From Dehalococcoidia bacterium (GTDB taxonomy: Bacteria > Chloroflexota > Dehalococcoidia > Plut-88900), in the NCBI GenBank assembly GCA_965197585.1, contig OZ240215.1, positions 224,001-288,000 on the forward strand: 64,000 nt of DNA. Reading direction: 5' to 3'. Under the pieces are notes generated by a model. That model worked only from the letters and a program-made list of their open reading frames with translations, ran no database searches and was not told the DNA's origin. The translations under genes and the position numbers were made by a program. Of the stretch, positions 4,365 to 19,711 are shown piece after piece (position 1 is the first letter of the stretch; the number at the start of each line of letters is the position of its first letter).

Positions 4365-4620
4365 GGTCACAGGCCGCCACGTCAGCTGTGGAAGTCGGAG
4401 GAGGTCGTAGGTTCCGCTGGCTTCGCCTGTGCCGGGGAGGCTCTCACGTGGTGCTCGACAGGCCAGTCCATCCACCTCGGACCGCGGACGGAACTGCGGC
4501 GCCCGCAGTCGCTGCGCCGCTCGCCCCTGGGGTTCGCCGCCTACGGCGAGCTAGCACAGACGTCCTCCCCGAATTTTCGGACTCGGCTAGCCGGGGGTAA
4601 GTTATGACCACCTCCCGGCG
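4365..4620 (+). ncRNA. Candidate structured cis-regulatory 5' leader RNA
   Basis: Long-range pairings GGAGGAgGTC/GACgTCCTCC, GTTCCG/CGGAAC, GCTGGCTT/AGGCCAGT, CTGTGC/GCACAG; RBS pairs with ACCTCCCGGC just inside the CDS. Confidence 0.4.
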
Positions 4621-7600
4621 TCTTGCGACGCTCCCACTGCTGCTCATCGGACTGGCGGTCATCGCCGCCCTGCTTCTCACTCCTGGGGCCCAGGCCCAGA
4701 GCCGGGACTCCGGCAGCGATTTCACCCTGGACGCCGCCAACGGCTACCCGACCGGCATCTGGTCGGACGGGACCACCATGTGGGTCGCGGACTTCGAGGA
4801 TCACAAGCTGTACGCCTACCGGATGTCGGACCGGAGCCGGGACTCGGGCAAGGACTTCACTCTGGACGCCGACAACGGCTCTCCGGTGGGCATCTGGTCG
4901 GACGGGACCACCATGTGGGCGTCGGACTTCACCGACGCCAAGCTGTACGCCTACCGGATGTCGGACCGGAGCCGGGACTCGGGCAAGGACTTCAACACGC
5001 TTTCTGCAGCCGGCAACCTCTTTCCCGAGGGCATCTGGTCGGACGGGACCACGATGTGGGTGGCGGACACCGGCAACGACACGGTGTTCGCCTACGACCT
5101 GTCGACCAGGGCCTGGGACTTCGAGAAGGACATCACGCTGGGCCCCGGCCACGGCTCTCCGATGGGCGTCTGGTCGAACGGATCCACGATGTGGGTTTCG
5201 GACTGGCGGGACACCAAGCTGTACGCCTACCGGATGTCGGACCAGACGCGGGACTCCGGCAAGGACTTCGCGCTGGACGCCGACGATGAATCTTACGAGG
5301 GCATCTGGTCGGTCGGGTCCACGATGTGGGTAGCGTCCCGCGACGACGACAGGCTCTACGCATACGACTGGAACAATCCTGCGACGGGAGCGCCGACGAT
5401 AACCGGCGCGGTCCGAGTGGGCCAGACGCTGGCGGCGGGCACCCGCTCCATCGCCGACGCGGACGGGCTGGACGCCGCCATCTTCGAATATCAATGGGTT
5501 TCGAACGGCGGGAACGCCGACACGGACATCGCGGGCGCTACCGATTCGACCTACACCATCGTCCCCGGCGACCGGGGCAGGGCCGTCAAGGTCAGGGTGT
5601 CCTTCACCGACGGCGCCGGCAACAGAGAGTCGTTGACCAGCGAGCCGACGGGTCAGGTCGGGACCCCGGGCATCTGCGACCGGACGCCTGCGGTGATGGC
5701 GGCCATCGTCGCCGGGATGACCGGCGTCGGCGACTGCTCCGAGGCTTCCGAAACGAGGCTCAGGACTTGGACCGGCTCTCAGCACTTCGGCCCCGGCGTC
5801 ACGCCCGGGCTGTACCTGCAGGGGAGGGGACTGTCGGCCCTGCAGGCCGGAGACTTCCGGGACCTGTACACGCTGCGCGCCCTGGACCTGAACCGGAACT
5901 TCCTCGAGACCGTCCCGGACGGGCTCTTCGAAGACCTACGCGCCGTGGACGAGCTCTATCTGTCGGGAAACTTCATAGACGAACTGCCGGACGGGGTGTT
6001 CGACGGTCCAGGGGAAGAACTGAGCCTGCTGGACCTGTCGGCGAACGGCCTTGAGACGCTGCCGGAGGGCGTGCTGCGAAATCTGGCCGGACTCGTCTCG
6101 CTGTCGCTCTCGGGCAACGGGCTCTCGGACCTTCCGGCGGGCCTTTTCGACGGCCTGGTCGAACTCGAGGAGCTGGACCTGTCCGCCAACTCGATAGACG
6201 AGCTGCCGGACGGGGTGTTTGACCGCAATCTCGAGCTGCGCGGCCTGGACCTGTCGATCAACGAGATCTCCGAGCTGCCGGAAGGGGTCTTCGGCGGTCT
6301 CGGCGACCTGCAGAGCCTCTCCCTCGCGGGGAACGACCTGAAGAGCCTGCCGGAGGACGTGTTCGCCGACCTCGGGAGTCTCGCTGAGCTGGACCTTTCG
6401 GGAAACAAGCTCAAGGACCTGCCTACCGGCCTCTTCGAAGGTCTGTCGGGGCTGACCGACCTCGACGCGAGCGACAATCCTGGCGCACCCTTCACGTTCA
6501 CCGCAGAGCTGGAGCGACGGGGAGACGATACGGTCGTGGTCCGATTGGCCGAGGGCGCGACGCCGTTTGATCTTCAGATCGAACTGTCGGCCCGTAACGG
6601 AGACCTGTCCGCCGAGACCGTCACCATCGCATCAGGCAGTTCCTATTCGGACGTTGTCGAGGTTCGTGCGCACGGGCATCATCCCGTCACGGTGGAGATC
6701 GACTCAGTTGCTTTCCTGTTGCCTTCCGGGGGTTCAGCGTCGGGAATCCACGCCGACCGCGGCAGCGCCATGCTTATGTGGGTCGGCAGACCATTGGTCC
6801 AAAGGGAATGGATCCAGGATGGACCCTTTGCCCTGCATCCGGAGAACGCGGACCCGAAGAGCATATGGTCGGACGGCGAGACGCTTTGGGTGGGCGACGA
6901 GAGTGCCCGGAAGGTCTTCGCCTACAAGCTGTGGGACAATCCCGGCACTGCAGTCAGCGAGTACGGGACCCGAGACCCCGGCAGGGACCTTCCGAGCCTC
7001 GGCGACGAGGACTTCTACGTCACCGGCCACGGCCTCCGATTGTACGTCGCCGAAGAGTCCCTTGACGGCGCCAGCCGGGACGTCTTCGGCTACGACCTGA
7101 CGAGTTTCACGCGTGCGGAGGACCGGGACTTCGTCTACGGGGGCTTGAACGTCGCGGGGGGCGTGTTCATAGTGCGCGGCACGGCTACGGACGGCCGTCA
7201 CATGTGGATCACGAACACCACGTCGCATGCGCACGCCTTCCGTCTGTTCGACGACCCTGAGACGCCGGAGGACGAATACGGGAAGCCGGACACGTCCCGG
7301 AAACTGACGATCCCCGGCTTGGGCCAGCTGAGCGGCCTCTTCACCGACGGGCGGACGATGTGGGGCGTCAGGTTCGCCTCGAACGACGCCTCGGTGCGGA
7401 GCGTGAAACTGTCCGACGGAACCGATGCGGGGTACGACTTTCCGCTCCACGAGGACAACGACCACGCCTACGGCATCTGGTCGAACGGGGAGACCTTCTA
7501 CGTCGTTGACGCCGACGATGACATGATCTACACCTATCATGGCGTCGGCGGCGTCGTACGGCCCTCCGTCGAAGACGCGGAGACCGCCGCCCCGCTGGTC

Positions 7601-10600
7601 GGCAACACGGGGCAGCCCGGCGACGCCGGCCATGACCTGGGCTTGGCCGGCGCAAAGAGGGCCCAGGCGTTCACCACCGGGACCAGCAGAGCCGGGTATT
7701 CGCTGGCGTCCGTCGGGATCGAGTTCGGCGACGTCTCGGACACGTCGTCCGCGCCGTCCGACCTCGAGGTGACGCTCAACGCGGACGGCGGCGGCGTCCC
7801 GGGCGACGCTCTCTGCACGCTGATCGCCCCGGCGAGCCTGTTCGAGCGGAGCGTGAACACCTTCGCCGCTCCGGCCTCGGGGACGACCTGCCCGGTTCTC
7901 GAGAAAGAGACGACCTACTTCGTGGTCGTCGAAAGGGTCCGCGTCACCGGTTCCGGCGCCATCGCTGTCAGTGGAACGGTGAGCGGCTCCGAAGACACGG
8001 GAGCCGCGGAGGGGTGGTCCATCGCGGACGGAAGCGCGACATATTCTCCTCAGGCCGCCGCTCAGGGATGGGTCTACGACGCGTTTTCCTACAAGATCGA
8101 GGTGCGCGGCTCCTTCATCAACAACCCGGCTACCGGCGAGCCGACGATCGCGGGCACGCCGCAGGTTAAGCGAACCCTCGCCGTGGCGGTCTCCGACGTG
8201 TCGGATGAGGACGGGCTGTCCAACGTTTCTTACAGCTACCAGTGGATTGCCGGAGGGTTGGACATCGCCGGAGCCACCGGCTCCAGCTACACGCTCACGT
8301 CCAACGAGCAGGGCAAGCGGATCAAGGTGCAGGTGGCGTTCGTCGACGACCGTGGCAATCATGAAACGCTGACCAGCGAGGCCACGCCATCGGTCCAGGC
8401 GCCGGATCGGCCCGGAACCGTTTCGCTCTTTCCGGCGCGGCCGAGGGTCGGGATGGTGGTCAGCGCCGCGCTGAGCGATCCCGACGGCCTCCAGGGCGGC
8501 GGTTCGGGCCCTGCGGCATCTTCGGGCGCGGTTTCGTGGAGCTGGGCCAGGTCTCCTGATGGAAACGACTGGACCCGCATCGAGGCCTACGGCGAAGGAG
8601 ACAGCTACGTTCCAACCGAAGAAGACGAAGGGATGCTGCTCAAGGCCGAGGCGTCGTACACCGACGGGCACGGCTCAGGCAAGTCCGCTCAGGCCGTTTC
8701 GTCCGCTGGCGTGGGTGCCCGCGAACCGGTTCCGGAGTTGACGGTGACGGTAATCGTCACGGGCCTGTCCCACCCCTGGGGCATCGATTTCACCCCCGAC
8801 GGGACGATGCTGTTCACCCAGCGCGCCGGCGTGCTGAACGCGAGGCTGACCGACGGCACCGTCAAGCGGGTCGACGCGGATCTCGGAGATCTGCTCGTCG
8901 ACGGGTTCGCCGGCCTGCAGGCGCTGGCCGTGGACCCGGACTTTACGACCAACCGGCGGTTCTACACGCTCCAGGGGCGCGCCGGACGCGAGATGCAGGT
9001 GATCGCCTGGACGATCGATGCGGACTACGACGAGGCCACACGCGTCGTCGATCCCCTGGTAAAGGGAATACCGATCGGGCCCGGGCCCTGGCACTCGGGA
9101 GGCCGGCTGCTATTCGGTCCGGAGGGATATCTATGGATCGCGACCGGCGACGGGCGGGTGGTAACGGGCGCGCAGGACCTGACGTCCCTGGGCGGCAAGG
9201 TCCTGCGCGTAGACCCGCGGACGGGCGCTGGGGCGCCTGGCAATCCGTTCGTATCTTCCGAACTGGTGTATGCCTACGGCTTCCGCAACCCCCAGGGCCT
9301 GGCTCTGCGCCCGGGCACGGACCAGATGTGGCTGGTGGAGCACGGCCCGAAACACGACGACGAGATCAACCTGCTGAAAGCAGGCGGCAACTTCGGCTGG
9401 GATCCGGACCCGGCCGGCGGATCGTCGGGCTCCTACCACGAGGCCGGCGTCCCCATGACCGACCTGGAGAAGTACCCATCCGCCCGCCAGGCCAGATGGT
9501 CCTCGGGATTCCCCACCCTGGCAACCAGCGGGGCCGTTTTCCTGGATGGCCCCCAATGGGGGGAGTGGGAAGGGCGACTCGCGGTGGCTACGCTCAATGC
9601 GAAGTCGCTGCGGGTCTTCGAGTTCACCGAACAGGGCGATTTCGCGGGTCAGATCGTCGTTCCGGAGCTCGATGGCAGCCACGGCCAGTTGCGGACCCCG
9701 GTGCTCGGCCCCGACGGGGCGCTGTACATCGCCACCTCCAACGCACCCGGCGTCGACAGGATTCTCAGGGTGGCCGCCAACAGTGCCGCGACGGGAGCGC
9801 CCGTCATCAGCGGCACCGTTGAAGTCGGCGAATCGCTGACGGCGGTCGTGTCCGGGATCGCCGACCCCGACGGGCTCGACGATGCTGCGTTCAGTTTCCA
9901 GTGGGCCCGCAGCCACTACGGGAGCAATTTCTCCGACATCGAAGGAGCGACGGCTTCGACCTACACCCTGGTTATGGCTGACCTTGGCAAGACTATCAAC
10001 GTGCGGGTGTCGTTCTATGACGACGGAGGCAGCCTGGAGGCGCTGACCAGTCAGAGGACGGTCAAGGTATCAGTCGTGGCATGTACGGTCGGCGAGCATG
10101 CCCCTGCGGCAACGGCGGTAGAGGTAGAAGCCGTTCCCGCTATCGTCGAGTCCACCACCGAGGAATACTTCGTGCTCTACGTGCGGCCCGCCCTGAGCTC
10201 CGAACGAGAGTTCCCGATCTCGGTGACCCTGGGCGAAGACGGCACAACAACGCTGACCGAGCAGCTGTCCCCGCTCCCCAAGGAGCATTACCGGGTGGAG
10301 AAGTTCCTCATCGCCGACCCGGCCGACATCGACAACGACTGCATCGACGACATCACCGAATTGGGGGACCCGGTGGGGATGAACCCGCTGAACCCCGCGC
10401 GGGCGGTCCCTTTTCGTGATGGCGCTGTGGCCATTCCAGACCGTGAGACATTCGAGGCGCTTTCCTACAAGGGCAGAGACGTTCCCTATCACCGTCATCT
10501 CCAGGACCTGGAGTTTGTCAAGTTCTACATTATCGGCTCGTCTGCCGAGAACATGGGTGTCTATTTCATTAACACCGAGACCCACCGAATACATCCCGAT

Positions 10601-13600
10601 TTCGGGGATGCAATCGGTCTCTGGAACGATCCGCTCTGGGGACAGGGGTACATGGGCGGCGAGATCATATACCATCCCAATGTGGTTGCTCCCGATGGTT
10701 CCCTGGGCGTCTACCGCTATCAGTTCCAGCCTATGGACGTATACTCCTTCGGCGCTGTGGCCCGTTCGTATGAGGCGCTTGCTGCCAGCATGCCGCTGCT
10801 TGATAACAACTTTGCCTACTATCCGATGCCGAGGAGAGCCCTGCCGCTCTATCACAGAGAACGGGCCCTCTACGATGATTCCCGGATCAATGTGGTGTTG
10901 AGAGAGGACATCCTGCCAGATGTTCCATTTATCCCCCTCAACGTTGGGGAGGGGTACGGTTTCCTCAGGCTCATGTCGTTGGAGGAACGCCCCGACCCGC
11001 GCGACGTGGTGATCTACGAGACTATCCCCAACGAGCTTTCCCGGGTCGTCGGCCTCATCACCACCGTACCCCAGACACCGCTTTCCCACGTCAACCTGCG
11101 GGCCGTCCAGGACGGTGTCCCCAACGCCTTCATTCGCGACGCTCTCGACGAGGGCGACATCAATGATCTCATCGGCAGATATGTCCACTACAGCATCACG
11201 GCGGACGGCTACTCCATCCGCGCCGCCACTCCCGCCGAAGTCGAGGCCTACTTCGCCGCTTCGCGCCCTCTCGGAACCCAGACGCCGGAACGGGACCTCA
11301 CAGTCACCCAGATCACCGACCTGGACGACATCGGCTTCGACGACTGGAACGCTTTCGGCGTAAAGGCGGCCAACGTGGCCGTGCTGCGGACGCTGGGTTT
11401 TCCTGACGGAACCGTCCCCCACGGGTTCGCGGTGCCCTTCTACTTCTACGACGAGTTCATGAAATACAACGGGTTCTATGACGACGTGGAGGAGATGCTG
11501 GCCGACCCGGAGTTCCAGTCGGACTATGACACCCAGGAGAAAGAACTCAAGAAACTGCGCAAGAAGATCAAGAAGGGGGAAACGCCCGACTGGATCATCA
11601 CAGCACTGGAGGAGATGCACGCCACCTACGCCGAAGGGCAATCCCTGCGCTACCGGTCGAGCACAAACAACGAGGATCTGCCGGGCTTCAGTGGCGCTGG
11701 GCTGTACGACTCAAAGACCCAGGACCCGGAGGAGACGGAGGAGGACGGTATCGACAAGTCCATCAAAGGGGTGTGGGCCAGCCTGTGGAACTTCCGGGCA
11801 TTCACTGAACGCGAGTTCCACCGCATCGACCACATAGAGACGGCCATGGGGGTCCTGGTGCATCCCAACTACTCGGACGAGCTGGCCAACGGCGTGGCCG
11901 TCAGCTTCGACCCTATCTACGGAACGGAGGGGAGCTACTACGTCAACACGCAACTCGGGGAGGACCTGGTCACCAATCCCGACGCACACTCGGTGCCCGA
12001 GGAAATCCTGTTGGACCTGTCCGGTTCATACACCACCCTGGTGACCTCCAACCAGGTGGCAGGAGGACAACTCCTCATGAGCGATGCTCAAATTGGCCAG
12101 TTGAGCCGGCATCTCCAGGACATCCATGACCATTTCGAGGGTCTGTACAACCCCGGACCCGACGAACCCTTTGCAATGGAGATCGAGTTCAAGATCACCA
12201 GCGACGACGTCCTGTCCATCAAACAGGCCCGCCCCTGGGTGTTTGACGCAACTAACGCCGGACCACCGCAGGAAGAGCCGATATGGTCCGCGACCCTTAC
12301 GGTGGGGACCGCAGAGAACTTCGCCGGCTACACGACATTCGTGGCCTCGCCGGAAACCAACACCCTGGGCGCACTCTCGTCGGACACCATCACTCTGGAT
12401 GGTGTCAGCTACACCGTGAAGGCCCTGGCGGTTCGGGACGGCGAGTTGATCCTCTCCGTGACGCCAAAGCTGGCTGCAGGTTTTGTGCTGGTTGCGGGGA
12501 CATCTGAATTCGCCTCCACCGATGCATCTACCCTGGAAACGGACTCTCTCTTGCAGTTCTACTGGAATAACCCAGGACTGGACTGGTCCGAGGAGGAAGA
12601 GGTCGCTGTCAGACTAACTGAGCCGAACGATAACGACCCGGCCACGGGAGCGCCCACGATCACTGGAACTTCGCAGGTGGACCAGACGTTGACGACGGAC
12701 ACCTGGGCCATTACCGACGAAGACGGGCTGACCAACGTTTCCTACAGCTACCAGTGGATCAGGAGCGACGGCAACACCGACACCGACATAGCGGGAGAGA
12801 CGGACTCGACCTACACGCTGGTCCGCGCCGACGAGGGCAAGACCATCAAGGTGCGGGTGAGCTTCACCGACGACGCCGACAATGCCGAGACGCTGACCAG
12901 CGCGGCGACGGGGGTGGTTGAGGCCAAGCCCAACACCCTGGCCACGGGAACGCCCACGATCACTGGAACGGCCCAGGTGGGAGAGACGCTGACGGTCCTC
13001 ACCAACGGGATCGCCGACGAAGACGGGCTGACCAATGTTCTCTACAGCTACCAGTGGATCAGGAGCGACGGCAACGCCGACACCGACATAGCGGGAGAGA
13101 CGGACTCGACCTATACGCTGGTCCGCGCCGACGAGGGCAAGACCATCAAGGTGGGGGTGAACTTCACCGACGACGCCGATAACGCCGAGACGCTGACCAG
13201 CGCAGCGACGGGGGTGGTTGAGGCCAAGCCCAACACCCCGGCGACGGGAGCGCCCACGATCACTGGAACTTCGCAGGTGGACCAGACGTTGACGGCGGAC
13301 ACCTGGGCCATTGCCGACGAAGACGGGCTGACCAACGTTTCCTACAGCTACCAGTGGATCAGGAGCGACGGCAACACCGACACCGACATAGCGGGAGAGA
13401 CGGACTCGACCTACACGCTGGTCCGCGCCGACGAGGGCAAGACCATCAAGGTAGGGGTGAGCTTCACCGACGACGCCGACAATGCCGAGACGCTGACCAG
13501 CGCGGCGACGGGGGTGGTTGAGGCCAAGCCCAACACCCTGGCCACGGGAACGCCCACGATCACTGGAACGGCCCAGGTGGGAGAGACGCTGACGGTCCTC

Positions 13601-16600
13601 ACCAACGGGATCGCCGACGAAGACGGGCTGACCAATGTTCTCTACAGCTACCAGTGGATCAGGAGCGACGGCAACGCCGACACCGACATAGCGGGAGAGA
13701 CGGACTCGACCTATACGCTGGTCCGCGCCGACGAGGGCAAGACCATCAAGGTGGGGGTGAACTTCACCGACGACGCCGATAACGCCGAGACGCTGATTAG
13801 CGCGGCGACGGGGGTGGCGTCCCGCTCCGACAAGCCGGTGGCGGATGGGTCGACCCCGGTGTGGTCGGCGGACATGTCTGTGGTGGATCTCGGTAACGGC
13901 TCCATTGGCGCCGTCAGCGCCAATCTCTTTTCGAACCAAGAAGGCAGTGCGGGTCTTCAGGCAAAGTGGCTGTGGTACTACAGCCCGGGGCGTTATATAC
14001 GCCTGTCATTTACGGATGTTGTACCCAGTGGGGAGGAACTGACGCTAGAGATCGGAGATGTGGCCCTGACGTTGCAGGCGGGAGATTCGGCCTTCACCTG
14101 GGAGGAGGTCGACGTCGATTGGGAGGACGGTCAGGTCATTCCAGTGCGCATCGTCCCGACGTCGGAGACAGCGGTGTCCCAGCCCAACACCCCGGCGACA
14201 GGAGGGCCGACCATCAGTGGAACGGCCCAGGTGGACCAGACGCTGTCCGTGGACACGTCTAACATCGCCGACCAGGACGGGCTGAACAACGTTTCCTACA
14301 GCTACCAGTGGATCAGGAGCGACGGCAACACCGACACCGACATAGCGGAAGAGACGGACCCGACCTACATCCTAGTCCCCGCCGACGAGGGCAAGACCAT
14401 CAAGGTGCGGGTGAGCTTCACCGACGAAGCAGACCACGAGGAGACGCTGACCGGCAATCCGACCAGGCCAGTGACTGCGGCACCCAACCGTCACGCGACG
14501 GGCAAGCCCACCATTGGCGGGACGCCCCAGGTGGACCAGACGCTGACCGCGGACACGTCTAACATCGCCGACCATGACGGGCTGAACAACGTCTCTTACA
14601 GCTACCAGTGGATCGCCGGAGGTACGGACATTGATGGGGCCACCGGGTCCACCTACACCCTGACTGCCAGTGAGCAGGGGCAGACCATCCGGGTTCGTGT
14701 GACGTTCACCGACGACCGGGACAACGCCGAGACCCTGACCAGCGTGGCGACTGTGGCCGTTGTTGCAGCGCCCAACCGCGAGGCCACGGGCCACCCCGCC
14801 ATCGGCGGGACGCCCCAGGTGGACCAGACGCTGACCGCGGACACGTCTAACATCGCCGACCAGGACGGGCTGAACAACGTCTCTTACAGCTACCAATGGA
14901 TGGCCGGAGGTTCGGACATTGATGGGGCCACCGGGTCCACCTACACCCTGACTGCCAGCGAGCAGGGGCAGACCGTACAGGTGAAGGTGACGTTCACTGA
15001 CGACCGGAACAACGCCGAGACCCTGACCAGCGTGGCGACTGTGGCCGTTGCTGTAGCGCCCAACCGAGAGGCCACGGGCCAGCCCACCATCGACGGGACG
15101 CCCCAGGTGGGAGAGACACTAACGGCGGATACGGCAAACATCGCCGACCAGGACGGGCTGAATAACGTGTCCTACAGCTACCAGTGGATCGCTGGAGGTA
15201 CGGACATCGTCGGGGCCACCGGCTCGAGCTACGAGCTTACGTCCAGCGAGCAGGGGCAGCCCATCCAGGTCCGGGTGACTTTCACCGACGATGCCGATAA
15301 CGAGGAGACGCTTATAAGCGCTGCAACGGAGGTGGTGCAGCAGGGTGGTAACGCCTGGTCCGCCACTATCACCGTGGGGACAAGAGATGGATACACAGGG
15401 TATTCGTACTGGGGCGATCCCGGCCTGGGGTCCCTGTCGGCCACCGAGGCCGAATGGGACGGCAAGACCCACTACGTCAGGTACATCTTTCTCAAGGATG
15501 GAGAGCTCTGGCTTGGCCTGAACAACGAGATGTTCTCCACCGGCTTCGTGCTGTCGGTTGGGGACGAGGAGTTCGGTTCGGCGGACGCCTTGGTGGATAG
15601 GAGTGGCGGTGCGTCCTACAGATTCCGGTGGGATGACCGGGGATTGGGCTGGTCGGATGGGGAGGAAGTGTCGGTGAACCTCCTGCAGTCCGACCAGAAT
15701 ACCCCGGCCCTGGGCGCGCCGACCATCAGCGGAACGGCACAGGTGGACGAGACACTGACTGCGGATACCTCTGGCGTTGAGGACGCGGACGGGTTGACCA
15801 ACGTGTCGTACAGCTACCAGTGGATGGCTGACGGCGTGGACATTCAGGACGCGACCAGTTCCACCCACAAGCTCGTATTCCCCGACCGGGGCAAGAGCAT
15901 CAAGGTGAAGGTGTCCTTCACCGACGACCGGGACAACGCCGATACCCTTACCAGCGCGGCGACTGTGGTCGTTGTTGCAGCGCCCAACCGCGAGGCCATG
16001 GGATATCCCACCATCACCGGAATGCCCCAGGTGGGACAGACCCTGACGGCGGACACTTCGCCAATCGCCGACCGCGACGGGCTGAACAACGTCTCTTACA
16101 GCTACCAGTGGATCGGCGGAGGGTCGGACATCGATGAGGCCACAGGCTCTAACTACGAGCTTGCGTCCAGCGAGCAGGGACAGACCATCCAGGTTCGGGT
16201 GACTTTCACCGACGACCGGGACAACGCCGAGACCCTTACCAGCGCGGCAACTGTGGCCGTTGTTGCAGCGCCCGACCGTCAGGCCACGGGCCTGCCCACC
16301 ATCAGCGGTACGCTCCAGGTAGGAGAGACCCTAATGGCGGGCACGTCGGGTATTACCGACGCCGACGGGCTCACCAACGTTTCCTTCGAGTACCAGTGGA
16401 TCAGGGGCGACAGCGGTGCCGGAGCGGACATAGACGGAGCGACGGACGCCACCTACACTCTGACCGCCGGCGACCAGGGGAAGACCATCAAGGTGAAGGT
16501 GTCCTTCACCGACGACGCAGACCACGAGGAGAAGCTGACCAGCGCGGCGACGGGAGTGGTTGCGGCCAAGCCCAACACTCCGGCCATGGGAGCGCCCACC

Positions 16601-18724
16601 ATTGATGGAACGGCCCAGGTGGGAGAGACGCTTACGGTCCTCACCAACGGCATCACCGACGAAGACGGGCTGACCAACCCAACGTACAGCTACCAGTGGA
16701 TTCGGAACGACGGAACCAATGACGCGCACATAGGAGGTAAGACAGGTTCGACCTACACCCTGAACGATGACGACGTGGGGAAGAGCATCAAGATGCGGGT
16801 GAGCTTCACCGACGACGCCGACCACGAGGAGACCCTGACCAGCGCGGCGACGGGGGTGGTTACAGCCAAGCCCAACTCTCCAGCCACGGGAGCGCCCACC
16901 ATTGATGGCACGGCCCAGGTGGGAGAGACGTTCACTGCCCTCACCAACGGCATCACCGACGAAGACGGGCTGACCAACCCAACGTACAGCTACCAGTGGA
17001 TCAGGAGCGACAACGGCACCGACGCCGATATAGCAGGGCAGACAGACTCCACCTACACGCTAGTGGCCGCCGACCAAGGCAAGACCATCATGGTGCGGGT
17101 GACCTTCACCGACGACGCCGATAACGAGGAGACCCTGACCAGCGCGGCAACGGAGGTGGTGCAGCAGGGTAGCAACGCTTGGTCCGCCACGATGACCGTG
17201 GGGACAAGAGATGGGTTCACCGGGTATTCGTACTGGAGCAATCCACACCTGGGGTCCCTGTCGGCCACCGAGGTCGAATGGGACGGCAAGACCCACTATG
17301 TCAGGTTCCTTTTTCTCAAGGACGGCGAGCTCCGGCTCGGCCTGAACGAAGAGATGTTCTCCACCGGCTTCGTGCTGTCGGTTGGGGACGAGGAGTTCGG
17401 CTCGGCGGACGCCATGGTGGATCATGGCGGTGCGTCCTACAGATTCCGGTGGGATGACCGGGGATTGGGCTGGTCGGATGGGAACGAGGTGTCGCTAAAC
17501 CTCGTGCTGTCCGACCAGAATACCCCGGCCCTGGGCGCGCCGACCATCAGCGGTACGGACCAAGTGGATGAGACGCTGACTGCGGACATCTCCGGTGTTG
17601 AGGACGCGGACGGGCTGGACAACGTGTTGTACAGCTACCAGTGGATGGCTGACGGCGTGGATATTCAGGACGCGACCAGTTCCACCTACAAGCCAGTATT
17701 CCCCGACCAGGGCAAGACCATCAAGGTGCGGGTGACCTTCACCGACGACCGGGACAACACCGAGACCCTTGGCAGCGAGGCGACGGGTGCAGTAGCGGCG
17801 GCGCCCAACCGTGATGCCACGGGAGCTCCCACCATCACAGAAATGCCCCAAGTGGGACAGACGCTGACGGCGGACACGTCTAACATCGCCGACCAGGACG
17901 GGCTGACCAACGTCTCTTACAGCTACCAGTGGATCGCCGGAGGGTCGGACATCGATGGGGCCACCAGCTTCAGCTACGAGCTCACGTCTAGCGAACAGGG
18001 TCGGACCATCCAGGTCCGGGTGACCTTCACCGACGACCGGGACAACGCCGAGACCCTTACCAGCGAGGCGACTGTGGCCGTTGTTGCAGCGCCCAACCGC
18101 GAGGCCACCGGCCTGCCGGCCATCAGCGGCACGCCGCAGGTGGGGGAGACCCTCACCGCATCAACCTCGTCCATAGCCGACGGGGACGGGCTGAACAACG
18201 TGTCCTACCGTTACCAGTGGATCGCCGGAGGTACGGACATCGATGGGGCCACCGGCTCCAGTTACGAGCTCACGTCCAGCGAGCAGGGGCAGACCATCCA
18301 GGTCCGTGTGACTTTCACAGACGACCGCGACAATGAGGAAACTCTGACCAGCGCGGCTACTGTCGAAGTGGCGGCGGCGCCAGTTCCGCTCACCGTCCGA
18401 CTGAAGGTCGCCGCCCCGACCTCCCACGACGGCTCGTCTGAGTTTACCTTCGAAATCGAGTTCAGCGAGGAGTTCGGCCTGAGCTACGTGACCCTGAAGA
18501 ACCATGCCTTCAATGCAGCCGGCGGATCCGTGGAGAGGGCGCAGAGAACGAACAAGCCCAGCAACATCTCCTGGAGCATCATGGTAAAGCCCACCTCCAC
18601 CGGGGACGTGACGATCGAACTCCGGGCAACCACGGACTGCGGAGCTACCGGAGCCATCTGCACCGGCGACGACAGGAAACTGTCCAACTCGCTGAGCTTC
18701 ACCGTCTTTGGGCCGGGGGGCTAG
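4604..18724 (+). CDS. Giant (4706 aa) secreted mosaic surface protein: GIWSDG propeller repeats, LRRs, PQQ-dependent sugar dehydrogenase domain, PPDK/PEP-synthase N-terminal ATP-grasp domain, ~19 Ig-like repeats, Cys-containing C-terminal domain
   Basis: Uninterrupted ORF with Sec signal ending AQA-Q. LPEGVFxGL LRRs at ~5810-6490. GLSHPWGIDF/HSGGRLLFGPEG/GFRNPQG/EHGP..DEIN at ~8735-9775. GVKAAN/RSSTNNEDLPGFSGAGLYDS/VWASLWN/EIEFK..QARP at ~11340-12245. Repeats NxPATGxPTIxG...YSYQW. Confidence 0.93.
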   Translation: MTTSRRLATLPLLLIGLAVIAALLLTPGAQAQSRDSGSDFTLDAANGYPTGIWSDGTTMWVADFEDHKLYAYRMSDRSRDSGKDFTLDADNGSPVGIWSDGTTMWASDFTDAKLYAYRMSDRSRDSGKDFNTLSAAGNLFPEGIWSDGTTMWVADTGNDTVFAYDLSTRAWDFEKDITLGPGHGSPMGVWSNGSTMWVSDWRDTKLYAYRMSDQTRDSGKDFALDADDESYEGIWSVGSTMWVASRDDDRLYAYDWNNPATGAPTITGAVRVGQTLAAGTRSIADADGLDAAIFEYQWVSNGGNADTDIAGATDSTYTIVPGDRGRAVKVRVSFTDGAGNRESLTSEPTGQVGTPGICDRTPAVMAAIVAGMTGVGDCSEASETRLRTWTGSQHFGPGVTPGLYLQGRGLSALQAGDFRDLYTLRALDLNRNFLETVPDGLFEDLRAVDELYLSGNFIDELPDGVFDGPGEELSLLDLSANGLETLPEGVLRNLAGLVSLSLSGNGLSDLPAGLFDGLVELEELDLSANSIDELPDGVFDRNLELRGLDLSINEISELPEGVFGGLGDLQSLSLAGNDLKSLPEDVFADLGSLAELDLSGNKLKDLPTGLFEGLSGLTDLDASDNPGAPFTFTAELERRGDDTVVVRLAEGATPFDLQIELSARNGDLSAETVTIASGSSYSDVVEVRAHGHHPVTVEIDSVAFLLPSGGSASGIHADRGSAMLMWVGRPLVQREWIQDGPFALHPENADPKSIWSDGETLWVGDESARKVFAYKLWDNPGTAVSEYGTRDPGRDLPSLGDEDFYVTGHGLRLYVAEESLDGASRDVFGYDLTSFTRAEDRDFVYGGLNVAGGVFIVRGTATDGRHMWITNTTSHAHAFRLFDDPETPEDEYGKPDTSRKLTIPGLGQLSGLFTDGRTMWGVRFASNDASVRSVKLSDGTDAGYDFPLHEDNDHAYGIWSNGETFYVVDADDDMIYTYHGVGGVVRPSVEDAETAAPLVGNTGQPGDAGHDLGLAGAKRAQAFTTGTSRAGYSLASVGIEFGDVSDTSSAPSDLEVTLNADGGGVPGDALCTLIAPASLFERSVNTFAAPASGTTCPVLEKETTYFVVVERVRVTGSGAIAVSGTVSGSEDTGAAEGWSIADGSATYSPQAAAQGWVYDAFSYKIEVRGSFINNPATGEPTIAGTPQVKRTLAVAVSDVSDEDGLSNVSYSYQWIAGGLDIAGATGSSYTLTSNEQGKRIKVQVAFVDDRGNHETLTSEATPSVQAPDRPGTVSLFPARPRVGMVVSAALSDPDGLQGGGSGPAASSGAVSWSWARSPDGNDWTRIEAYGEGDSYVPTEEDEGMLLKAEASYTDGHGSGKSAQAVSSAGVGAREPVPELTVTVIVTGLSHPWGIDFTPDGTMLFTQRAGVLNARLTDGTVKRVDADLGDLLVDGFAGLQALAVDPDFTTNRRFYTLQGRAGREMQVIAWTIDADYDEATRVVDPLVKGIPIGPGPWHSGGRLLFGPEGYLWIATGDGRVVTGAQDLTSLGGKVLRVDPRTGAGAPGNPFVSSELVYAYGFRNPQGLALRPGTDQMWLVEHGPKHDDEINLLKAGGNFGWDPDPAGGSSGSYHEAGVPMTDLEKYPSARQARWSSGFPTLATSGAVFLDGPQWGEWEGRLAVATLNAKSLRVFEFTEQGDFAGQIVVPELDGSHGQLRTPVLGPDGALYIATSNAPGVDRILRVAANSAATGAPVISGTVEVGESLTAVVSGIADPDGLDDAAFSFQWARSHYGSNFSDIEGATASTYTLVMADLGKTINVRVSFYDDGGSLEALTSQRTVKVSVVACTVGEHAPAATAVEVEAVPAIVESTTEEYFVLYVRPALSSEREFPISVTLGEDGTTTLTEQLSPLPKEHYRVEKFLIADPADIDNDCIDDITELGDPVGMNPLNPARAVPFRDGAVAIPDRETFEALSYKGRDVPYHRHLQDLEFVKFYIIGSSAENMGVYFINTETHRIHPDFGDAIGLWNDPLWGQGYMGGEIIYHPNVVAPDGSLGVYRYQFQPMDVYSFGAVARSYEALAASMPLLDNNFAYYPMPRRALPLYHRERALYDDSRINVVLREDILPDVPFIPLNVGEGYGFLRLMSLEERPDPRDVVIYETIPNELSRVVGLITTVPQTPLSHVNLRAVQDGVPNAFIRDALDEGDINDLIGRYVHYSITADGYSIRAATPAEVEAYFAASRPLGTQTPERDLTVTQITDLDDIGFDDWNAFGVKAANVAVLRTLGFPDGTVPHGFAVPFYFYDEFMKYNGFYDDVEEMLADPEFQSDYDTQEKELKKLRKKIKKGETPDWIITALEEMHATYAEGQSLRYRSSTNNEDLPGFSGAGLYDSKTQDPEETEEDGIDKSIKGVWASLWNFRAFTEREFHRIDHIETAMGVLVHPNYSDELANGVAVSFDPIYGTEGSYYVNTQLGEDLVTNPDAHSVPEEILLDLSGSYTTLVTSNQVAGGQLLMSDAQIGQLSRHLQDIHDHFEGLYNPGPDEPFAMEIEFKITSDDVLSIKQARPWVFDATNAGPPQEEPIWSATLTVGTAENFAGYTTFVASPETNTLGALSSDTITLDGVSYTVKALAVRDGELILSVTPKLAAGFVLVAGTSEFASTDASTLETDSLLQFYWNNPGLDWSEEEEVAVRLTEPNDNDPATGAPTITGTSQVDQTLTTDTWAITDEDGLTNVSYSYQWIRSDGNTDTDIAGETDSTYTLVRADEGKTIKVRVSFTDDADNAETLTSAATGVVEAKPNTLATGTPTITGTAQVGETLTVLTNGIADEDGLTNVLYSYQWIRSDGNADTDIAGETDSTYTLVRADEGKTIKVGVNFTDDADNAETLTSAATGVVEAKPNTPATGAPTITGTSQVDQTLTADTWAIADEDGLTNVSYSYQWIRSDGNTDTDIAGETDSTYTLVRADEGKTIKVGVSFTDDADNAETLTSAATGVVEAKPNTLATGTPTITGTAQVGETLTVLTNGIADEDGLTNVLYSYQWIRSDGNADTDIAGETDSTYTLVRADEGKTIKVGVNFTDDADNAETLISAATGVASRSDKPVADGSTPVWSADMSVVDLGNGSIGAVSANLFSNQEGSAGLQAKWLWYYSPGRYIRLSFTDVVPSGEELTLEIGDVALTLQAGDSAFTWEEVDVDWEDGQVIPVRIVPTSETAVSQPNTPATGGPTISGTAQVDQTLSVDTSNIADQDGLNNVSYSYQWIRSDGNTDTDIAEETDPTYILVPADEGKTIKVRVSFTDEADHEETLTGNPTRPVTAAPNRHATGKPTIGGTPQVDQTLTADTSNIADHDGLNNVSYSYQWIAGGTDIDGATGSTYTLTASEQGQTIRVRVTFTDDRDNAETLTSVATVAVVAAPNREATGHPAIGGTPQVDQTLTADTSNIADQDGLNNVSYSYQWMAGGSDIDGATGSTYTLTASEQGQTVQVKVTFTDDRNNAETLTSVATVAVAVAPNREATGQPTIDGTPQVGETLTADTANIADQDGLNNVSYSYQWIAGGTDIVGATGSSYELTSSEQGQPIQVRVTFTDDADNEETLISAATEVVQQGGNAWSATITVGTRDGYTGYSYWGDPGLGSLSATEAEWDGKTHYVRYIFLKDGELWLGLNNEMFSTGFVLSVGDEEFGSADALVDRSGGASYRFRWDDRGLGWSDGEEVSVNLLQSDQNTPALGAPTISGTAQVDETLTADTSGVEDADGLTNVSYSYQWMADGVDIQDATSSTHKLVFPDRGKSIKVKVSFTDDRDNADTLTSAATVVVVAAPNREAMGYPTITGMPQVGQTLTADTSPIADRDGLNNVSYSYQWIGGGSDIDEATGSNYELASSEQGQTIQVRVTFTDDRDNAETLTSAATVAVVAAPDRQATGLPTISGTLQVGETLMAGTSGITDADGLTNVSFEYQWIRGDSGAGADIDGATDATYTLTAGDQGKTIKVKVSFTDDADHEEKLTSAATGVVAAKPNTPAMGAPTIDGTAQVGETLTVLTNGITDEDGLTNPTYSYQWIRNDGTNDAHIGGKTGSTYTLNDDDVGKSIKMRVSFTDDADHEETLTSAATGVVTAKPNSPATGAPTIDGTAQVGETFTALTNGITDEDGLTNPTYSYQWIRSDNGTDADIAGQTDSTYTLVAADQGKTIMVRVTFTDDADNEETLTSAATEVVQQGSNAWSATMTVGTRDGFTGYSYWSNPHLGSLSATEVEWDGKTHYVRFLFLKDGELRLGLNEEMFSTGFVLSVGDEEFGSADAMVDHGGASYRFRWDDRGLGWSDGNEVSLNLVLSDQNTPALGAPTISGTDQVDETLTADISGVEDADGLDNVLYSYQWMADGVDIQDATSSTYKPVFPDQGKTIKVRVTFTDDRDNTETLGSEATGAVAAAPNRDATGAPTITEMPQVGQTLTADTSNIADQDGLTNVSYSYQWIAGGSDIDGATSFSYELTSSEQGRTIQVRVTFTDDRDNAETLTSEATVAVVAAPNREATGLPAISGTPQVGETLTASTSSIADGDGLNNVSYRYQWIAGGTDIDGATGSSYELTSSEQGQTIQVRVTFTDDRDNEETLTSAATVEVAAAPVPLTVRLKVAAPTSHDGSSEFTFEIEFSEEFGLSYVTLKNHAFNAAGGSVERAQRTNKPSNISWSIMVKPTSTGDVTIELRATTDCGATGAICTGDDRKLSNSLSFTVFGPGG
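4701..5370 (+). repeat. Five ~45-aa GIWSDGTTMWV repeats (135-bp period), beta-propeller-like
   Basis: gccgggactc recurs at 4701, 4836, 4971; first units near-identical at DNA level. Confidence 0.9.
12641..13815 (+). repeat. Near-perfect 600-bp tandem duplication (two Ig-like modules, ABAB)
   Basis: Lines 12961-13190 and 13561-13790 essentially identical; 12661 vs 13261 differ by a few SNPs. Confidence 0.95.
15280..17950 (+). repeat. Dispersed ~850-bp intragenic duplication (15280-16110 vs 17100-17935)
   Basis: WSATxTVGTRDG...GKTHYVR...SDQNTPALGAPT block occurs twice, ~1820 bp apart. Confidence 0.9.
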
Positions 18725-18875
18725 GAGCGGCGCTATAGAGGGTTCCGGGCCGAAAAGATAGACCGGGCAGTGCATAGCGCTTGTTTTTCCGGTCAACAAG
18801 AAAAGCCCGCGTATGCGGATGGCCGGAGGCCAGCGGCCTCTCCCGGCCCGGATGCGTACCGGTGGCGTGTGCCTG

Positions 18876-19560: not shown

Positions 19561-19711
19561 CGACCGTCGAAGCGGTTCGGGGAGGCGGTAGGCTTTCTCG
19601 CGGCCAGTGTTGGATCTGTCCATCGAGACAGGTTTACACAGTTCGATGAAAACGGCAGCCATGACGATGAAGTATACGGTGAAGAGAAAACTAAAGTGCT
19701 AGGAGGAGATA

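What the first reader, a model, noticed from the sequence alone, without database searches (positions are those of the whole stretch)
4604..18724. 4706-aa secreted mosaic protein combining adhesin repeats, eukaryote-like LRRs and two enzyme modules
Seen: signal peptide, 5 GIWSDG repeats, Ig-like unit, Cys-capped ~9 LRRs (LPEGVFxGL type, like animal LRR proteins), second propeller, AQAFTTG domain, Ig units, PQQ sugar dehydrogenase domain, Ig unit, PPDK-like module, 16 further Ig-like units with spacer domains, and a C-terminal domain with DC...IC. The major modules are separated by the same ~96-100-aa NxPATGxPTI unit. Inference: the Ig-like units act as recombination joints for module shuffling, building a multi-enzyme host-interaction scaffold.
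Basis: partly seen in the sequence, partly recalled or inferred. Interest (0 to 1): 0.75.

Follow-up and report, generated by a model that had tools for sequence, protein, structure and literature searches.

The report
Giant mosaic exported protein, module-swapping family
A real 4,706-residue exported protein of an uncultured Dehalococcoidia bacterium carries binding domains and two enzyme-like modules on Ig-like repeats, and belongs to a large family that swaps such modules and is shared among distant microbial lineages, several of them known from sponges.

Summary
The ORF (4604-18724, +) is intact and its anatomy is largely as described: signal peptide, 5 GIWSDG-type repeats, 9-10 LRRs, a second repeat domain, an AQAFTTG domain, a PQQ sugar-dehydrogenase module, a PPDK_N-containing module, 19 canonical plus 1 degenerate Ig-like units, 4 spacer domains and a two-Cys C-terminal domain.

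It is not an assembly chimera. Of the 120 best homologues, 72 share the same 2,560-residue head at 77-93% identity.

The module-shuffling idea is partly right:
- Tails vary from 1 to 16 Ig units.
- The dikinase cassette is absent in 10 relatives, and the change of sequence context falls across one Ig unit.
- The cassette occurs in 86 distinct architectures among those 120 proteins.
- In this gene, however, the three inter-module Ig units share at most 20 nt of exact identity with any other unit, and the head order is fixed.

The "PPDK-like" part is one conserved ~720-residue module. It has an intact ATP-grasp domain preceded by an invariant His motif, in the domain order of glucan-water dikinase. 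The module family is very large, mostly signal-peptide-bearing and uncharacterised. Relatives at 56-76% identity occur in five further bacterial phyla and in a Cenarchaeum archaeon.

Host interaction and catalysis remain untested.

The parts
4604..4696 (+). Signal-peptide-like N-terminus (aa 1-31; h-region aa 7-25, then AQA/Q)
   Evidence: It is the only strongly hydrophobic stretch in 4,706 aa.
4697..5374 (+). Repeat domain 1 (PROP1): five ~45-47-aa GIWSDG-type repeats. Propeller fold assumed, not tested
   Evidence: (D7). No Pfam family fits and there is no PDB hit. dN/dS is 0.31.
5372..5659 (+). Ig-like unit 1 (joint between PROP1 and LRR)
   Evidence: SCAB-Ig/IG_AIR9/ZirU family hits.
5669..6523 (+). 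N-terminal two-Cys cap (C358, C378) plus 9-10 typical 24-aa LRRs
   Evidence: LRR_8, 1.4e-40. Best solved relatives are LGR5, ALS and LRRC15. DNA repeat family D10.
6524..6808 (+). Post-LRR domain (PL), no known family. It always travels with the LRR in relatives
   Evidence: No Pfam hit. LRR-PL adjacency.
6809..7573 (+). Repeat domain 2 (PROP2): about five diverged repeats of the same type
   Evidence: dN/dS is 0.21.
7574..8119 (+). AQAFTTG domain (AQ) with Cys1071/Cys1096. Possibly a lectin-like beta-sandwich (lead only)
   Evidence: No Pfam hit. The nearest named Atlas clusters are Lectin_like (0.91) and DUF4082 (0.90), which are leads only.
8120..8731 (+). Ig-like unit 2 and a degenerate Ig-like unit 3 (24% identity to unit 1)
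8735..9769 (+). PQQ-type soluble glucose/sorbosone dehydrogenase module. WHSGGRL (aa 1496-1502), FRNPQG (1560-1565) and the Arg of QLRTPVLGPDG are kept
   Evidence: Pfam GSDH, 2.2e-64, profile positions 1-328 of 332. Solved relatives 2ism (6.4e-40), 7cdy and 2g8s. dN/dS is 0.31.
9779..10066 (+). Ig-like unit 4, the joint at which relatives gain or lose the dikinase cassette
10079..12268 (+). PPN-PPDK cassette, one conserved ~720-aa module. It comprises an N-terminal beta-sandwich, a DxDxDxxxD loop (aa 1908-1916), an alpha/beta domain, a His-bearing domain (QTPLSHVNLRA, aa 2157-2167, His2162) and an ATP-grasp domain (aa 2236-2550)
   Evidence: Relatives align over the module as one stretch, residues 2-725. 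Invariant motifs. AF2 model pLDDT 87.7. The ATP-grasp part matches RPH, PEP synthase and PPDK folds. dN/dS is 0.29 for PPN and 0.15 for PPDK.
12281..12637 (+). Spacer domain 1 (WSAT...TVG type), no known family
12632..13819 (+). Ig-like units 5-8, an A-B-A-B duplication (12785-13084 and 13385-13684 are 99% identical)
   Evidence: exact matches of 139 and 265 nt.
13835..14191 (+). Spacer domain 2 (the most diverged copy, 28% identity to spacer 1)
14186..15349 (+). Ig-like units 9-12
15365..15703 (+). Spacer domain 3
   Evidence: Part of a ~1.8-kb super-repeat shared with spacer 4 (D8/D9).
15698..17161 (+). Ig-like units 13-17
17180..17524 (+). Spacer domain 4
17519..18382 (+). Ig-like units 18-20
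18389..18721 (+). C-terminal domain (CT) with Cys4679/Cys4686. It is the last domain in 64 of 72 same-head homologues and is internal in some paralogues
   Evidence: No Pfam, PDB or Atlas relative.
2224..4138 (-). Divergently transcribed two-component pair: NarL/LuxR-type response regulator (2224-2898) and HisKA_3 sensor kinase (2876-4138)
   Evidence: Pfam and NCBIfam. The same pair lies upstream in 9 of 18 orthologous loci and beside 8 paralogous giant genes.

Best explanation
This is a genuine, intact gene for a Sec-exported, very acidic, 4,706-residue extracellular or cell-surface protein of an uncultured Dehalococcoidia (Chloroflexota) bacterium. It is one orthologue of a large family of mosaic giant proteins.

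It has two parts:
- A conserved 2,560-residue head. Its ligand-binding modules are two GIWSDG-repeat domains, an LRR solenoid with its own post-LRR domain, and a Cys-paired AQAFTTG domain. Its two catalytic-type modules are a PQQ-type aldose/sorbosone dehydrogenase and a ~720-residue dikinase-like cassette.
- A variable tail of 16 Ig-like units, 4 spacer domains and a small terminal domain. The tail most likely serves as an extended stalk.

The cassette is not a pyruvate phosphate dikinase. Its order is substrate-side domains, then a His-bearing domain, then a C-terminal ATP-grasp domain. That is the order of alpha-glucan water dikinase. The inferred chemistry is therefore: ATP is cleaved to AMP and phosphate, the beta-phosphate passes to His2162, and from there to a hydroxyl of a bound polymer or small molecule.

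The Ig-like units are structural linkers. As DNA repeats they are also the places where relatives differ. Tail units are similar enough to recombine now, which explains the copy-number variation. Cassettes have been gained or lost across an Ig unit in the past.

Shown here: gene integrity, domain identities, conservation of the head, variation of the tail, the cassette's presence or absence at an Ig unit, motif conservation, purifying selection, and the wide taxonomic spread of the cassette.

Inferred: export, stalk function, catalytic activity, substrates, and a role in life within an animal host.
For: Gene and domains.

Export:
- Single N-terminal hydrophobic stretch, four intramodule Cys pairs, 703 D+E against 292 K+R.
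- At least 11 of 16 short cassette-family members start with a signal-like stretch.
- Among 30 family members, 5 carry T9SS tails, 4 carry CW_binding_2 and 2 carry SLH anchors. Of 6 stand-alone forms, 3 have a T9SS sorting domain.

Not a chimera:
- 72 of 120 listed homologues share the head order at 77-93% identity. So do 15 of 79 species-level loci, many titled 'chromosome'.

Cassette:
- Relatives align over it as one stretch, residues 2-725; 4,957 representative clusters match at E<=1e-3 and 1,269 at E<=1e-30.
- Invariant or nearly invariant in 30 sequences: GxKAAN, RSSxNxED, ExE, QxR, QTPLSHVNLRA and DxDxDxxxD.
- AF2 pLDDT 87.7. The ATP-grasp part matches rifampin phosphotransferase at 1.4e-15, and also PEP synthase and PPDK (sequence level).
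- The His region is modelled as 7 strands plus 3 helices with the His at the start of a 9-residue helix. The published StGWD1 His domain is described the same way, sitting before a C-terminal ATP-binding domain (passages of PMC13553574).

Selection (dN/dS against 9 orthologues): PPDK 0.15, PPN 0.29, GSDH 0.31, Ig linkers 0.50-0.72.

Recombination signals.
Against: - No activity, localisation or expression data exist.
- An ATP-dependent enzyme and a PQQ enzyme outside the cell both need a cofactor supply that I cannot show.
- The His domain is not established. Pfam GWD1_pHisD is sub-threshold (E 0.18 and 0.049; 5 of 31 members). A profile of the region finds nothing in PDB sequences at E<=10. 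The fold search with the PPN-only model (pLDDT 78) gave 0 hits at E<=1e-3.
- No PEP/pyruvate-binding domain and no starch-binding CBM is present. All NCBIfam dikinase models score far below their cut-offs.
- No cell-wall anchor, transmembrane helix or sorting signal was found, so 'surface-attached' versus 'released' is open.
- The junction Ig unit of cassette-less relatives is only ~50-65% identical to either parental unit over its first two thirds. A crossover inside the unit is therefore consistent with the data but not proven.
- The habitat of this organism is not stated in any record I saw.
Confidence: 0.7

Rival explanations
1. The two enzyme-like modules are pseudo-enzymes reused as binding modules. 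The GSDH propeller would act as a ligand or glycan binder. The ATP-grasp cassette would act as a nucleotide or polyanion binder. The whole protein would then be purely an adhesin or matrix-binding fibre.
For: ATP and PQQ are not obviously available outside the cell (general knowledge). The rest of the protein consists of binding and spacer domains. The His domain could not be confirmed by profile or fold search.
Against: The catalytic-type motifs are kept. For GSDH these are the His of WHSGGRL and the Arg-Asn of FRNPQG. For the cassette they are GxKAAN, RSSxNxED, ExE and QxR, with an 11-residue motif around the His that is invariant or nearly so in 30-31 sequences at 41-94% identity. dN/dS is lowest in the ATP-grasp part, at 0.15.
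Confidence: 0.2
2. It is mainly an extracellular nutrient-processing scaffold that oxidises, phosphorylates or hydrolyses dissolved or matrix glycans. It is not a host-recognition device, and the LRR and repeat domains only hold substrates.
For: Relatives carry other catalytic cassettes in the same frame: GH20 hexosaminidase domains in P0095, and metallophosphatase or purple-acid-phosphatase domains in P0101, P0105, P0112 and P0116 (precomputed Pfam). Sponge-associated Chloroflexi are discussed as degraders of dissolved organic matter (passages of PMC6306507).
Against: Nothing here separates this reading from host interaction, and the two are not exclusive. LRR, fn3, cadherin and Calx-beta domains are reported as enriched in symbiotic versus free-living relatives in another phylum (passages of PMC11706023).
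Confidence: 0.3
3. The ORF is an assembly artefact: a chimera joined across near-identical repeats.
For: The tail holds 300-nt units that are 99% identical with exact matches up to 265 nt. Such repeats can be collapsed or expanded by assemblers.
Against: The head order recurs in 72 of 120 independent homologues and in 15 of 79 species-level loci. The protein's own contig is 3.43 Mb. The closest relative (P0003, 93%) has the same four-block tail with 4/3/4/3 rather than 4/4/5/3 Ig units. Only the exact tail copy number is open.
Confidence: 0.03
4. It is a polymorphic toxin or contact-dependent competition protein, with the payload in its small C-terminal domain.
For: Giant size, repeats, and a variable region before a small terminal domain. 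A comparative-genomics paper on polymorphic toxin systems surfaced in my search (listing and start of its abstract only).
Against: The CT domain is conserved rather than polymorphic: it ends 64 of 72 same-head homologues. It also occurs internally in paralogues. It has no toxin, PDB or Atlas match. No immunity-like small ORF was identified downstream, although ORFs 18989-20431 have no Pfam hit.
Confidence: 0.03

Closest known systems
Eukaryotic-like-domain proteins of sponge symbionts (LRR, fn3, cadherin, Calx-beta, NHL/WD40 classes)
   Same: It has typical 24-aa LRRs and repeat domains in an exported protein. Relatives of its cassette carry fn3, cadherin, PKD and Calx-beta domains. Cassette relatives also occur in Poriferisodalis and Aldehydirespiratoraceae genomes, families that include sponge-symbiotic lineages (PMC11706023 passages).
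   Different: The published classes are counted domain by domain. I found no description of this fixed 2,560-residue head, of a GSDH module, or of a dikinase-like cassette in such proteins. The habitat of this genome is inferred, not stated.
Alpha-glucan, water dikinase (StGWD1) and other His-dependent dikinases (PEP synthase, PPDK, rifampin phosphotransferase)
   Same: The ATP-grasp domain is shared (Pfam PPDK_N; fold match to 5hv1, 2ols, 1kbl). As in GWD1, a His-bearing domain of 7 strands and 3 helices, with the His at the start of a short helix, sits directly before a C-terminal ATP-binding domain.
   Different: It has no CBM45 and no PEP/pyruvate domain. It is exported, with an invariant Cys pair and a DxDxDxxxD loop, and is embedded in a giant protein. 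The His-domain relationship is only sub-threshold. The substrate is unknown.
Soluble PQQ aldose/glucose dehydrogenases (E. coli YliI/Asd 2g8s, Thermus 2ism, Acinetobacter sGDH 1c9u)
   Same: Full-length GSDH match, with the His and Arg-Asn motifs kept.
   Different: Here it is an internal module flanked by Ig-like units. It scores below the TIGR03606 cut-off (85 against 434.55 bits). No pqq genes lie in the window.
Giant repeat adhesins with tandem Ig-like extender arrays (large RTX/Bap-type adhesins; recalled, not searched)
   Same: A long tandem array of ~96-100-aa Ig-like units whose copy number varies between close relatives.
   Different: It has a Sec-type signal peptide and no RTX/T1SS signal or LPXTG. 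Enzyme modules are embedded in the chain, and the organism is a Chloroflexota member.
ZirU/ZirS-type and AIR9/SCAB Ig-like domain families
   Same: The Ig-like unit scores above the cut-offs of these models (ZirU_fam 425.7 bits in 16 stretches; IG_AIR9 83.8; SCAB-Ig 58.2).
   Different: The match concerns the single repeat unit only. A profile of the 20 units finds no convincing solved structure.

Membership tests
Pfam GSDH (soluble PQQ glucose/sorbosone dehydrogenase) | Full-length match to the family model above its curated cut-off | tested here: met
   218.3 bits against a cut-off of 25; profile positions 1-328 of 332.
Pfam GSDH (soluble PQQ glucose/sorbosone dehydrogenase) | Catalytic His and PQQ-contacting Arg-Asn (residue roles recalled from sGDH and Asd literature) | tested here: met
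   WHSGGRL and FRNPQG align with the HxGG[RK] and HRNPQG motifs of 2ism and 7cdy.
Pfam GSDH (soluble PQQ glucose/sorbosone dehydrogenase) | PQQ binding and sugar oxidation | not testable with these tools
   This needs protein. The NCBIfam subfamily TIGR03606 cut-off is not reached (85.1 against 434.55 bits).
His-dependent dikinases (PPDK / PEP synthase / RPH / GWD) | ATP-grasp nucleotide-binding domain | tested here: met
   PPDK_N at 97-101 bits against a cut-off of 27. PDB sequence hit 9dae at 1.8e-9. Foldseek hit 5hv1 at 1.4e-15 over 337 columns.
His-dependent dikinases (PPDK / PEP synthase / RPH / GWD) | Nucleotide/Mg-binding residues (Lys of GGKxxN, RSSxxxED, ExE, QxR; mapping partly recalled) | tested here: met
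   GVKAANV, RSSTNNEDL, MEIEF and KQARP are invariant or at least 90% conserved in 30 sequences. RSSxxxED aligns with PEP synthase.
His-dependent dikinases (PPDK / PEP synthase / RPH / GWD) | Swivelling phosphohistidine domain with a conserved catalytic His | tested here: inconclusive
   For: His2162 lies in a motif that is invariant or nearly so, and the secondary-structure count and His position match the published GWD1 His domain. Against: GWD1_pHisD is sub-threshold (5 of 31 members, best E 0.049), there is no PDB profile hit, and there is no fold hit.
PPDK / PEP synthase proper | C-terminal PEP/pyruvate-binding TIM-barrel domain; equivalog score | tested here: not met
   No such Pfam domain occurs in the protein or in the 30 family members. 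NCBIfam equivalogs score 75-78 bits against cut-offs of 598-740.
Alpha-glucan water dikinase | N-terminal CBM45/CBM20 starch-binding modules | tested here: not met
   No CBM hit appears in the 415 residues before the ATP-grasp domain or in family members. Only the domain order is shared.
Typical (animal-type) LRR ectodomains | 24-residue LxxLxLxxNxL repeats | tested here: met
   LRR_8 in 5 stretches. 347 solved chains match at E<=1e-5, led by LGR5.
Typical (animal-type) LRR ectodomains | Four-Cys LRRNT and LRRCT capping modules | tested here: not met
   Only Cys358 and Cys378 precede the repeats, and no Cys follows them before aa 1071.
Beta-propeller (for the two GIWSDG repeat domains) | Blade-forming repeats closing into a propeller fold | not tested
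   Only the repeats are shown. There is no significant PDB sequence hit (best E 0.1).
Known surface-anchoring or sorting systems (LPXTG, SLH, CWB2, T9SS tail, TM anchor) | A recognisable anchor or sorting domain | tested here: not met
   None is found in this protein, although cassette relatives elsewhere have them.
Polymorphic toxin systems | Variable C-terminal toxin domain | tested here: not met
   CT is conserved in 64 of 72 same-head homologues and has no toxin-family, PDB or Atlas match.

The most novel reading that the evidence does not exclude
The ~720-residue PPN-PPDK cassette defines a large, uncharacterised family of exported His-dependent dikinases. These would be enzymes that use extracellular ATP to phosphorylate a polymer or metabolite outside the cell, or that drain extracellular ATP. 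In communities of animal-associated microbes the cassette, framed by Ig-like repeats, would pass between distant bacterial phyla and into an archaeon as a plug-in module of giant surface proteins.
Probability: 0.3. Interest if true: 0.8.

Novelty: new variant of a known kind. Interest (0 to 1): 0.62.

Why it matters
Giant repeat-rich proteins with eukaryote-like domains are a known hallmark of symbionts of sponges, but they are usually only counted by domain. This locus gives a fully resolved example and a large comparative series, so module gain, loss and repeat expansion can be read directly.

The locus also points to an exported, ATP-grasp-plus-His cassette family. The family has thousands of members and only a generic database name. 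If it is active outside the cell, that would be an unusual place for a dikinase. It would also give a concrete, testable activity for how such microbes modify their surroundings or a host matrix.

Cassette copies at 56-76% identity occur in five bacterial phyla beyond Chloroflexota and in a Cenarchaeum chromosome, where the gene is flanked by transposases. This makes the cassette a good marker for gene flow within such communities.

Tried and rejected
Source names therefore come only, which gave one generic name.
- The Atlas search on the AQ domain gave only unnamed clusters, with Lectin_like and DUF4082 as leads. On the CT domain nothing reached 0.9.
- PDB sequence or profile searches gave nothing useful for PROP1, the Ig-unit profile (best hit an Ara h 8 allergen at 8e-4, judged chance), CT and the His-region profile.
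- The fold search with the PPN-only model gave no hit at E<=1e-3. The substrate-side domains therefore stay without a structural relative in the PDB. No AlphaFold-DB library was available.
- Per-module GC3 ranges from 0.70 to 0.93, against 0.75-0.80 in housekeeping genes. It is uneven (PROP1 0.93, PPN 0.75, PL 0.70) but not decisive for foreign origin.
- I looked for att-type direct repeats of the neighbouring island at tRNA-Ser and found none.
- Consensus promoter scans upstream found nothing. Only a weak terminator-like site follows the stop codon.
- Pfam hits to Ribosomal_S28e, DUF3491 and NCH3 have no stretch that passes on its own. I treat them as repeat artefacts.
- Literature searches for Poriferisodalis plus sponge, PF01326 plus signal peptide, sponge symbiont plus sorbosone dehydrogenase and bacterial extracellular dikinases found nothing relevant. 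The library lacks most subscription journals, and I read no supplements.
Full report
OBSERVATION

The window holds one uninterrupted ORF from 4604 to 18724 on the + strand, 4,706 aa.

- The N-terminus (MTTSRRLATLPLLLIGLAVIAALLLTPGAQAQ) is the only strongly hydrophobic stretch in the protein.
- Five ~45-47-aa repeats follow, three with exact GIWSDG.
- Pfam finds LRR_8 (1.4e-40), GSDH (2.2e-64, full length) and PPDK_N (1.4e-27).
- The repeated ~96-100-aa unit scores above the cut-offs of three Ig-like families: IG_AIR9, SCAB-Ig, and ZirU_fam in 16 stretches.
- A motif scan and an alignment give 19 canonical units plus one degenerate unit. Exactly 16 lie after the PPDK module.
- Four WSAT-type spacer domains and a C-terminal domain with two Cys complete it.

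Corrections:
- The LRR cap has two Cys, on the N-terminal side only.
- Only three head junctions carry an Ig unit.
- 'Propeller' is an untested guess for both repeat domains.

Six segments have no Pfam family: the post-LRR domain, AQ, the first 415 aa of the cassette, the spacers, the degenerate Ig unit and CT.

IS IT REAL?

A search restricted to proteins of 2,588-8,236 aa found 548 relatives, of which the best 120 were listed. I built HMMs of each module from this protein and wrote an architecture string for all 120:
- 72 share the complete head order PROP1-Ig-LRR-PL-PROP2-AQ-Ig-(degenerate Ig)-GSDH-Ig-PPN-PPDK, at 77-93% identity.
- 10 have the head without PPN-PPDK.
- 10 are N-terminally shorter.
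- 28 are other combinations.

In one-genome-per-species contigs, 15 of 79 loci encode the full head and 3 more encode part of it. Most of these records are titled 'Dehalococcoidia bacterium ... chromosome'. The protein's own contig is 3.43 Mb. A chimeric misassembly of the head is therefore excluded. Only the exact tail copy number is open, because units 5-8 form an A-B-A-B duplication with 99% identity and exact matches up to 265 nt.

THE JOINT HYPOTHESIS

For it:
- Tails of the 72 same-head proteins hold 1 to 16 Ig units in 34 distinct arrangements. This protein sits at the long extreme. Its closest relative (P0003, 93%) differs by Ig counts per block, 4/3/4/3 against 4/4/5/3.
- Cassette-less relatives are collinear with this protein up to aa 1822, the end of Ig unit 4. 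They then continue with sequence that matches its Ig17-spacer 4 region.
- In all four such relatives examined, identity to the GSDH/IG4 context is 20-21 of 23 just before the unit. The unit's last third is 27-29 of 33 identical to Ig17. The next 27 columns are 23-25 identical to spacer 4.
- P0095 has about 1,013 aa with GH20 domains in the same slot.
- An Ig unit is the upstream neighbour of the cassette in 120 of 129 occurrences in the proteins and in 38 of 80 in the loci.

Against it, for this gene now:
- Ig units 1, 2 and 4 share only 10-20 nt of exact identity with any other unit.
- The head order is fixed in the orthologues.
- The first two thirds of the junction unit resemble neither parental unit closely, so a crossover inside the unit is consistent with the data but not proven.

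I therefore rate the interpretation as partly supported. The Ig array is a recombining tail and a historical joint. It is not an active shuffling device in the head.

THE 'PPDK-LIKE' MODULE

An exhaustive profile-free search of 1.84 billion representatives with aa 1826-2555 gave 4,957 hits at E<=1e-3 and 1,269 at E<=1e-30. Relatives align over residues 2-725 as a single stretch, and stand-alone forms of ~825-850 aa exist. The 415 residues before PPDK_N therefore belong to the same evolutionary unit.

In 30 sequences at 41-70% identity to the query, these are invariant or at least 90% conserved:
- a Cys pair (module positions 2 and 88);
- DxDxDxxxD;
- QTPLSHVNLRA;
- the ATP-grasp motifs GxKAAN, RSSxNxED, ExE and QxR.

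The AF2 model is confident (pLDDT 87.7, pTM 0.74). Its C-terminal half matches rifampin phosphotransferase, PEP synthase, HpeI and PPDK (sequence level).

The His-bearing region is modelled as 7 strands and 3 helices, with the His at the first position of a 9-residue helix. A 2026 paper on potato GWD1 (passages read) describes its His domain in the same terms. It also gives the same order: central domain, His domain, C-terminal ATP-binding domain.

The link is not proven, however:
- GWD1_pHisD is the most frequent Pfam hit of the region but stays sub-threshold (5 of 31 members, best E 0.049).
- A profile of the region finds no PDB sequence.
- The PPN-only model finds no fold at E<=1e-3.
- There is no PEP/pyruvate domain and no CBM.

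My conclusion is that the module works like a GWD-type dikinase but is not a member of PPDK, PEP synthase or GWD proper.

The cassette family appears to be exported in general:
- At least 11 of 16 short members start with a signal-like stretch.
- Members carry T9SS tails, CW_binding_2, SLH, PKD, cadherin and fn3 domains.
- The only source name I saw is 'PEP/pyruvate-binding domain-containing protein'.
- NCBIfam has no model for it.

OTHER MODULES

- The GSDH module aligns end to end with solved PQQ sugar dehydrogenases (2ism at 6.4e-40, 7cdy, 2g8s). It keeps the His and Arg-Asn motifs.
- The best solved relatives of the LRRs are animal ectodomains. The PDB is biased towards these, and this does not show an animal origin.
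- Eight Cys form four intramodule pairs, and the protein is very acidic. Both fit an extracellular, Ca-rich setting.
- dN/dS against nine orthologues is lowest in the ATP-grasp part (0.15). It is 0.21-0.38 in the other head modules and 0.50-0.72 in the Ig linkers and AQ. For Ig2 the best BLAST hit may be a paralogous unit.

DISTRIBUTION

The genome scan with the cassette found 585 relatives, and the best 80 were kept as 79 loci. Besides Dehalococcoidia, record titles name:
- Anaerolineales and Tepidiformaceae;
- Acidimicrobiia, including Candidatus Poriferisodalis and Aldehydirespirator(aceae);
- Acidobacteriota, Latescibacterota, Thermodesulfobacteriota and Planctomycetota;
- one Cenarchaeum chromosome.

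Identities to the query are 56-76% outside the orthologue group.

I built a quick ML tree of 78 loci plus the window. L017 was dropped by my domain-pair filter. The tree interleaves phyla: starred branches force at least 8 label changes each for Chloroflexota and Actinomycetota. Cenarchaeum sits among bacterial copies, on a branch with 90% SH-aLRT support that is not starred. Paralogy is extensive, with several genomes holding two loci. The tree alone is therefore no proof of transfer, but identities this high between domains of life are hard to explain otherwise.

The Cenarchaeum gene (2,160 aa; DUF285 x4, PPDK_N, PKD, fn3) is flanked by a DDE transposase and an IS110 transposase.

Passages of PMC11706023 state that Poriferisodalaceae and Aldehydirespiratoraceae include sponge-symbiotic lineages. 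They also state that LRR, cadherin, fn3 and Calx-beta domains are enriched in the symbionts. Passages of PMC6306507 describe sponge-associated SAR202 with 57-66% GC and eukaryote-like repeat proteins. That this window comes from such a habitat is my inference; no record says so.

CONTEXT

- Upstream and divergent lie a NarL-type response regulator and a HisKA_3 kinase.
- The same pair sits upstream in 9 of 18 orthologous loci and next to 8 paralogous giant genes. The regulator is far better conserved (80-95%) than the kinase (59-87%).
- Downstream lies a GC-rich island, about 22-39.4 kb, 65-74% GC. It holds a primase-type Zn ribbon, a TraG-like ATPase, a replication-relaxation protein and an integrase next to tRNA-Ser.
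- The giant gene lies outside the island, and the orthologous loci lack it.

VERDICT

The kind, a giant exported protein with eukaryote-like domains in a symbiont-type lineage, is known. What goes beyond a routine member:
- the resolved architecture series;
- the Ig-unit junction;
- above all, the exported dikinase-like cassette family and its spread.

Catalysis, substrate, attachment and any host role remain open.

Noticed in passing
window 22000-39618: A GC-rich island (65-74% against 58-61% in flanking housekeeping genes). It holds a DnaG-type Zn-ribbon protein (22646-24028, -), a TraG-like ATPase (30677-32875, +), a replication-relaxation protein (34631-37090, +) and a tyrosine integrase (38221-39369, -) abutting tRNA-Ser(TGA) (39529-39618, -). 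It looks like an integrative conjugative element of the actinomycete type. No att repeat was found and its left border is unresolved.
   Followed up: partly
window 2224-4138 (-); L001, L002, L003, L005, L008, L009, L015, L016, L018, L020, L026, L027, L031, L032, L044, L064, L077: A NarL-type regulator and a HisKA_3 kinase lie next to the giant gene in 9 of 18 orthologous loci and beside 8 paralogous giant genes. The regulator is 80-95% identical and the kinase only 59-87%. This suggests a dedicated sensor whose input side diverges quickly.
   Followed up: partly
L046 2416-3381 and 15377-16510: In the Cenarchaeum chromosome, the cassette-bearing gene (8558-15040) is bracketed by a DDE transposase and an IS110-family transposase. 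A second giant fn3/propeller-type ORF follows at 17218-22104.
   Followed up: partly
window 4604-12637 compared with 9 orthologous loci: Synonymous divergence differs about five-fold between modules of the same gene pairs (dS 0.07 in Ig1, 0.09 in AQ, 0.11 in PROP1, against 0.26 in LRR, 0.31 in PL and 0.36 in Ig2). This hints at gene conversion or exchange of segments among orthologues.
   Followed up: no
window 12785-13084 and 13385-13684: Two 300-nt stretches are 99% identical within a 600-nt-period A-B-A-B duplication of Ig units 5-8. It is a very recent duplication and the place where an assembler is most likely to miscount.
   Followed up: partly
P0062, P0092, P0097, P0100, L077: Some relatives carry the CT domain internally, directly after a PPDK module, or hold two cassettes. 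P0062 reads like two family genes fused head to tail. Either CT is an ordinary module or some of these are read-through gene calls.
   Followed up: no
window 498-1895 (+): A 465-aa ORF with no Pfam family (weak sub-cutoff GltJ similarity only). It is conserved at 91-93% upstream of the orthologous loci L003 and L015.
   Followed up: no
homologues P0004, P0005, P0006, P0083, L011, L032 and many others: Relatives carry further unassigned tail inserts of about 246 aa (before CT in many) and about 606 aa that are absent from this protein. Precomputed Pfam lists suggest fn3 and SWM_repeat for some of them.
   Followed up: no
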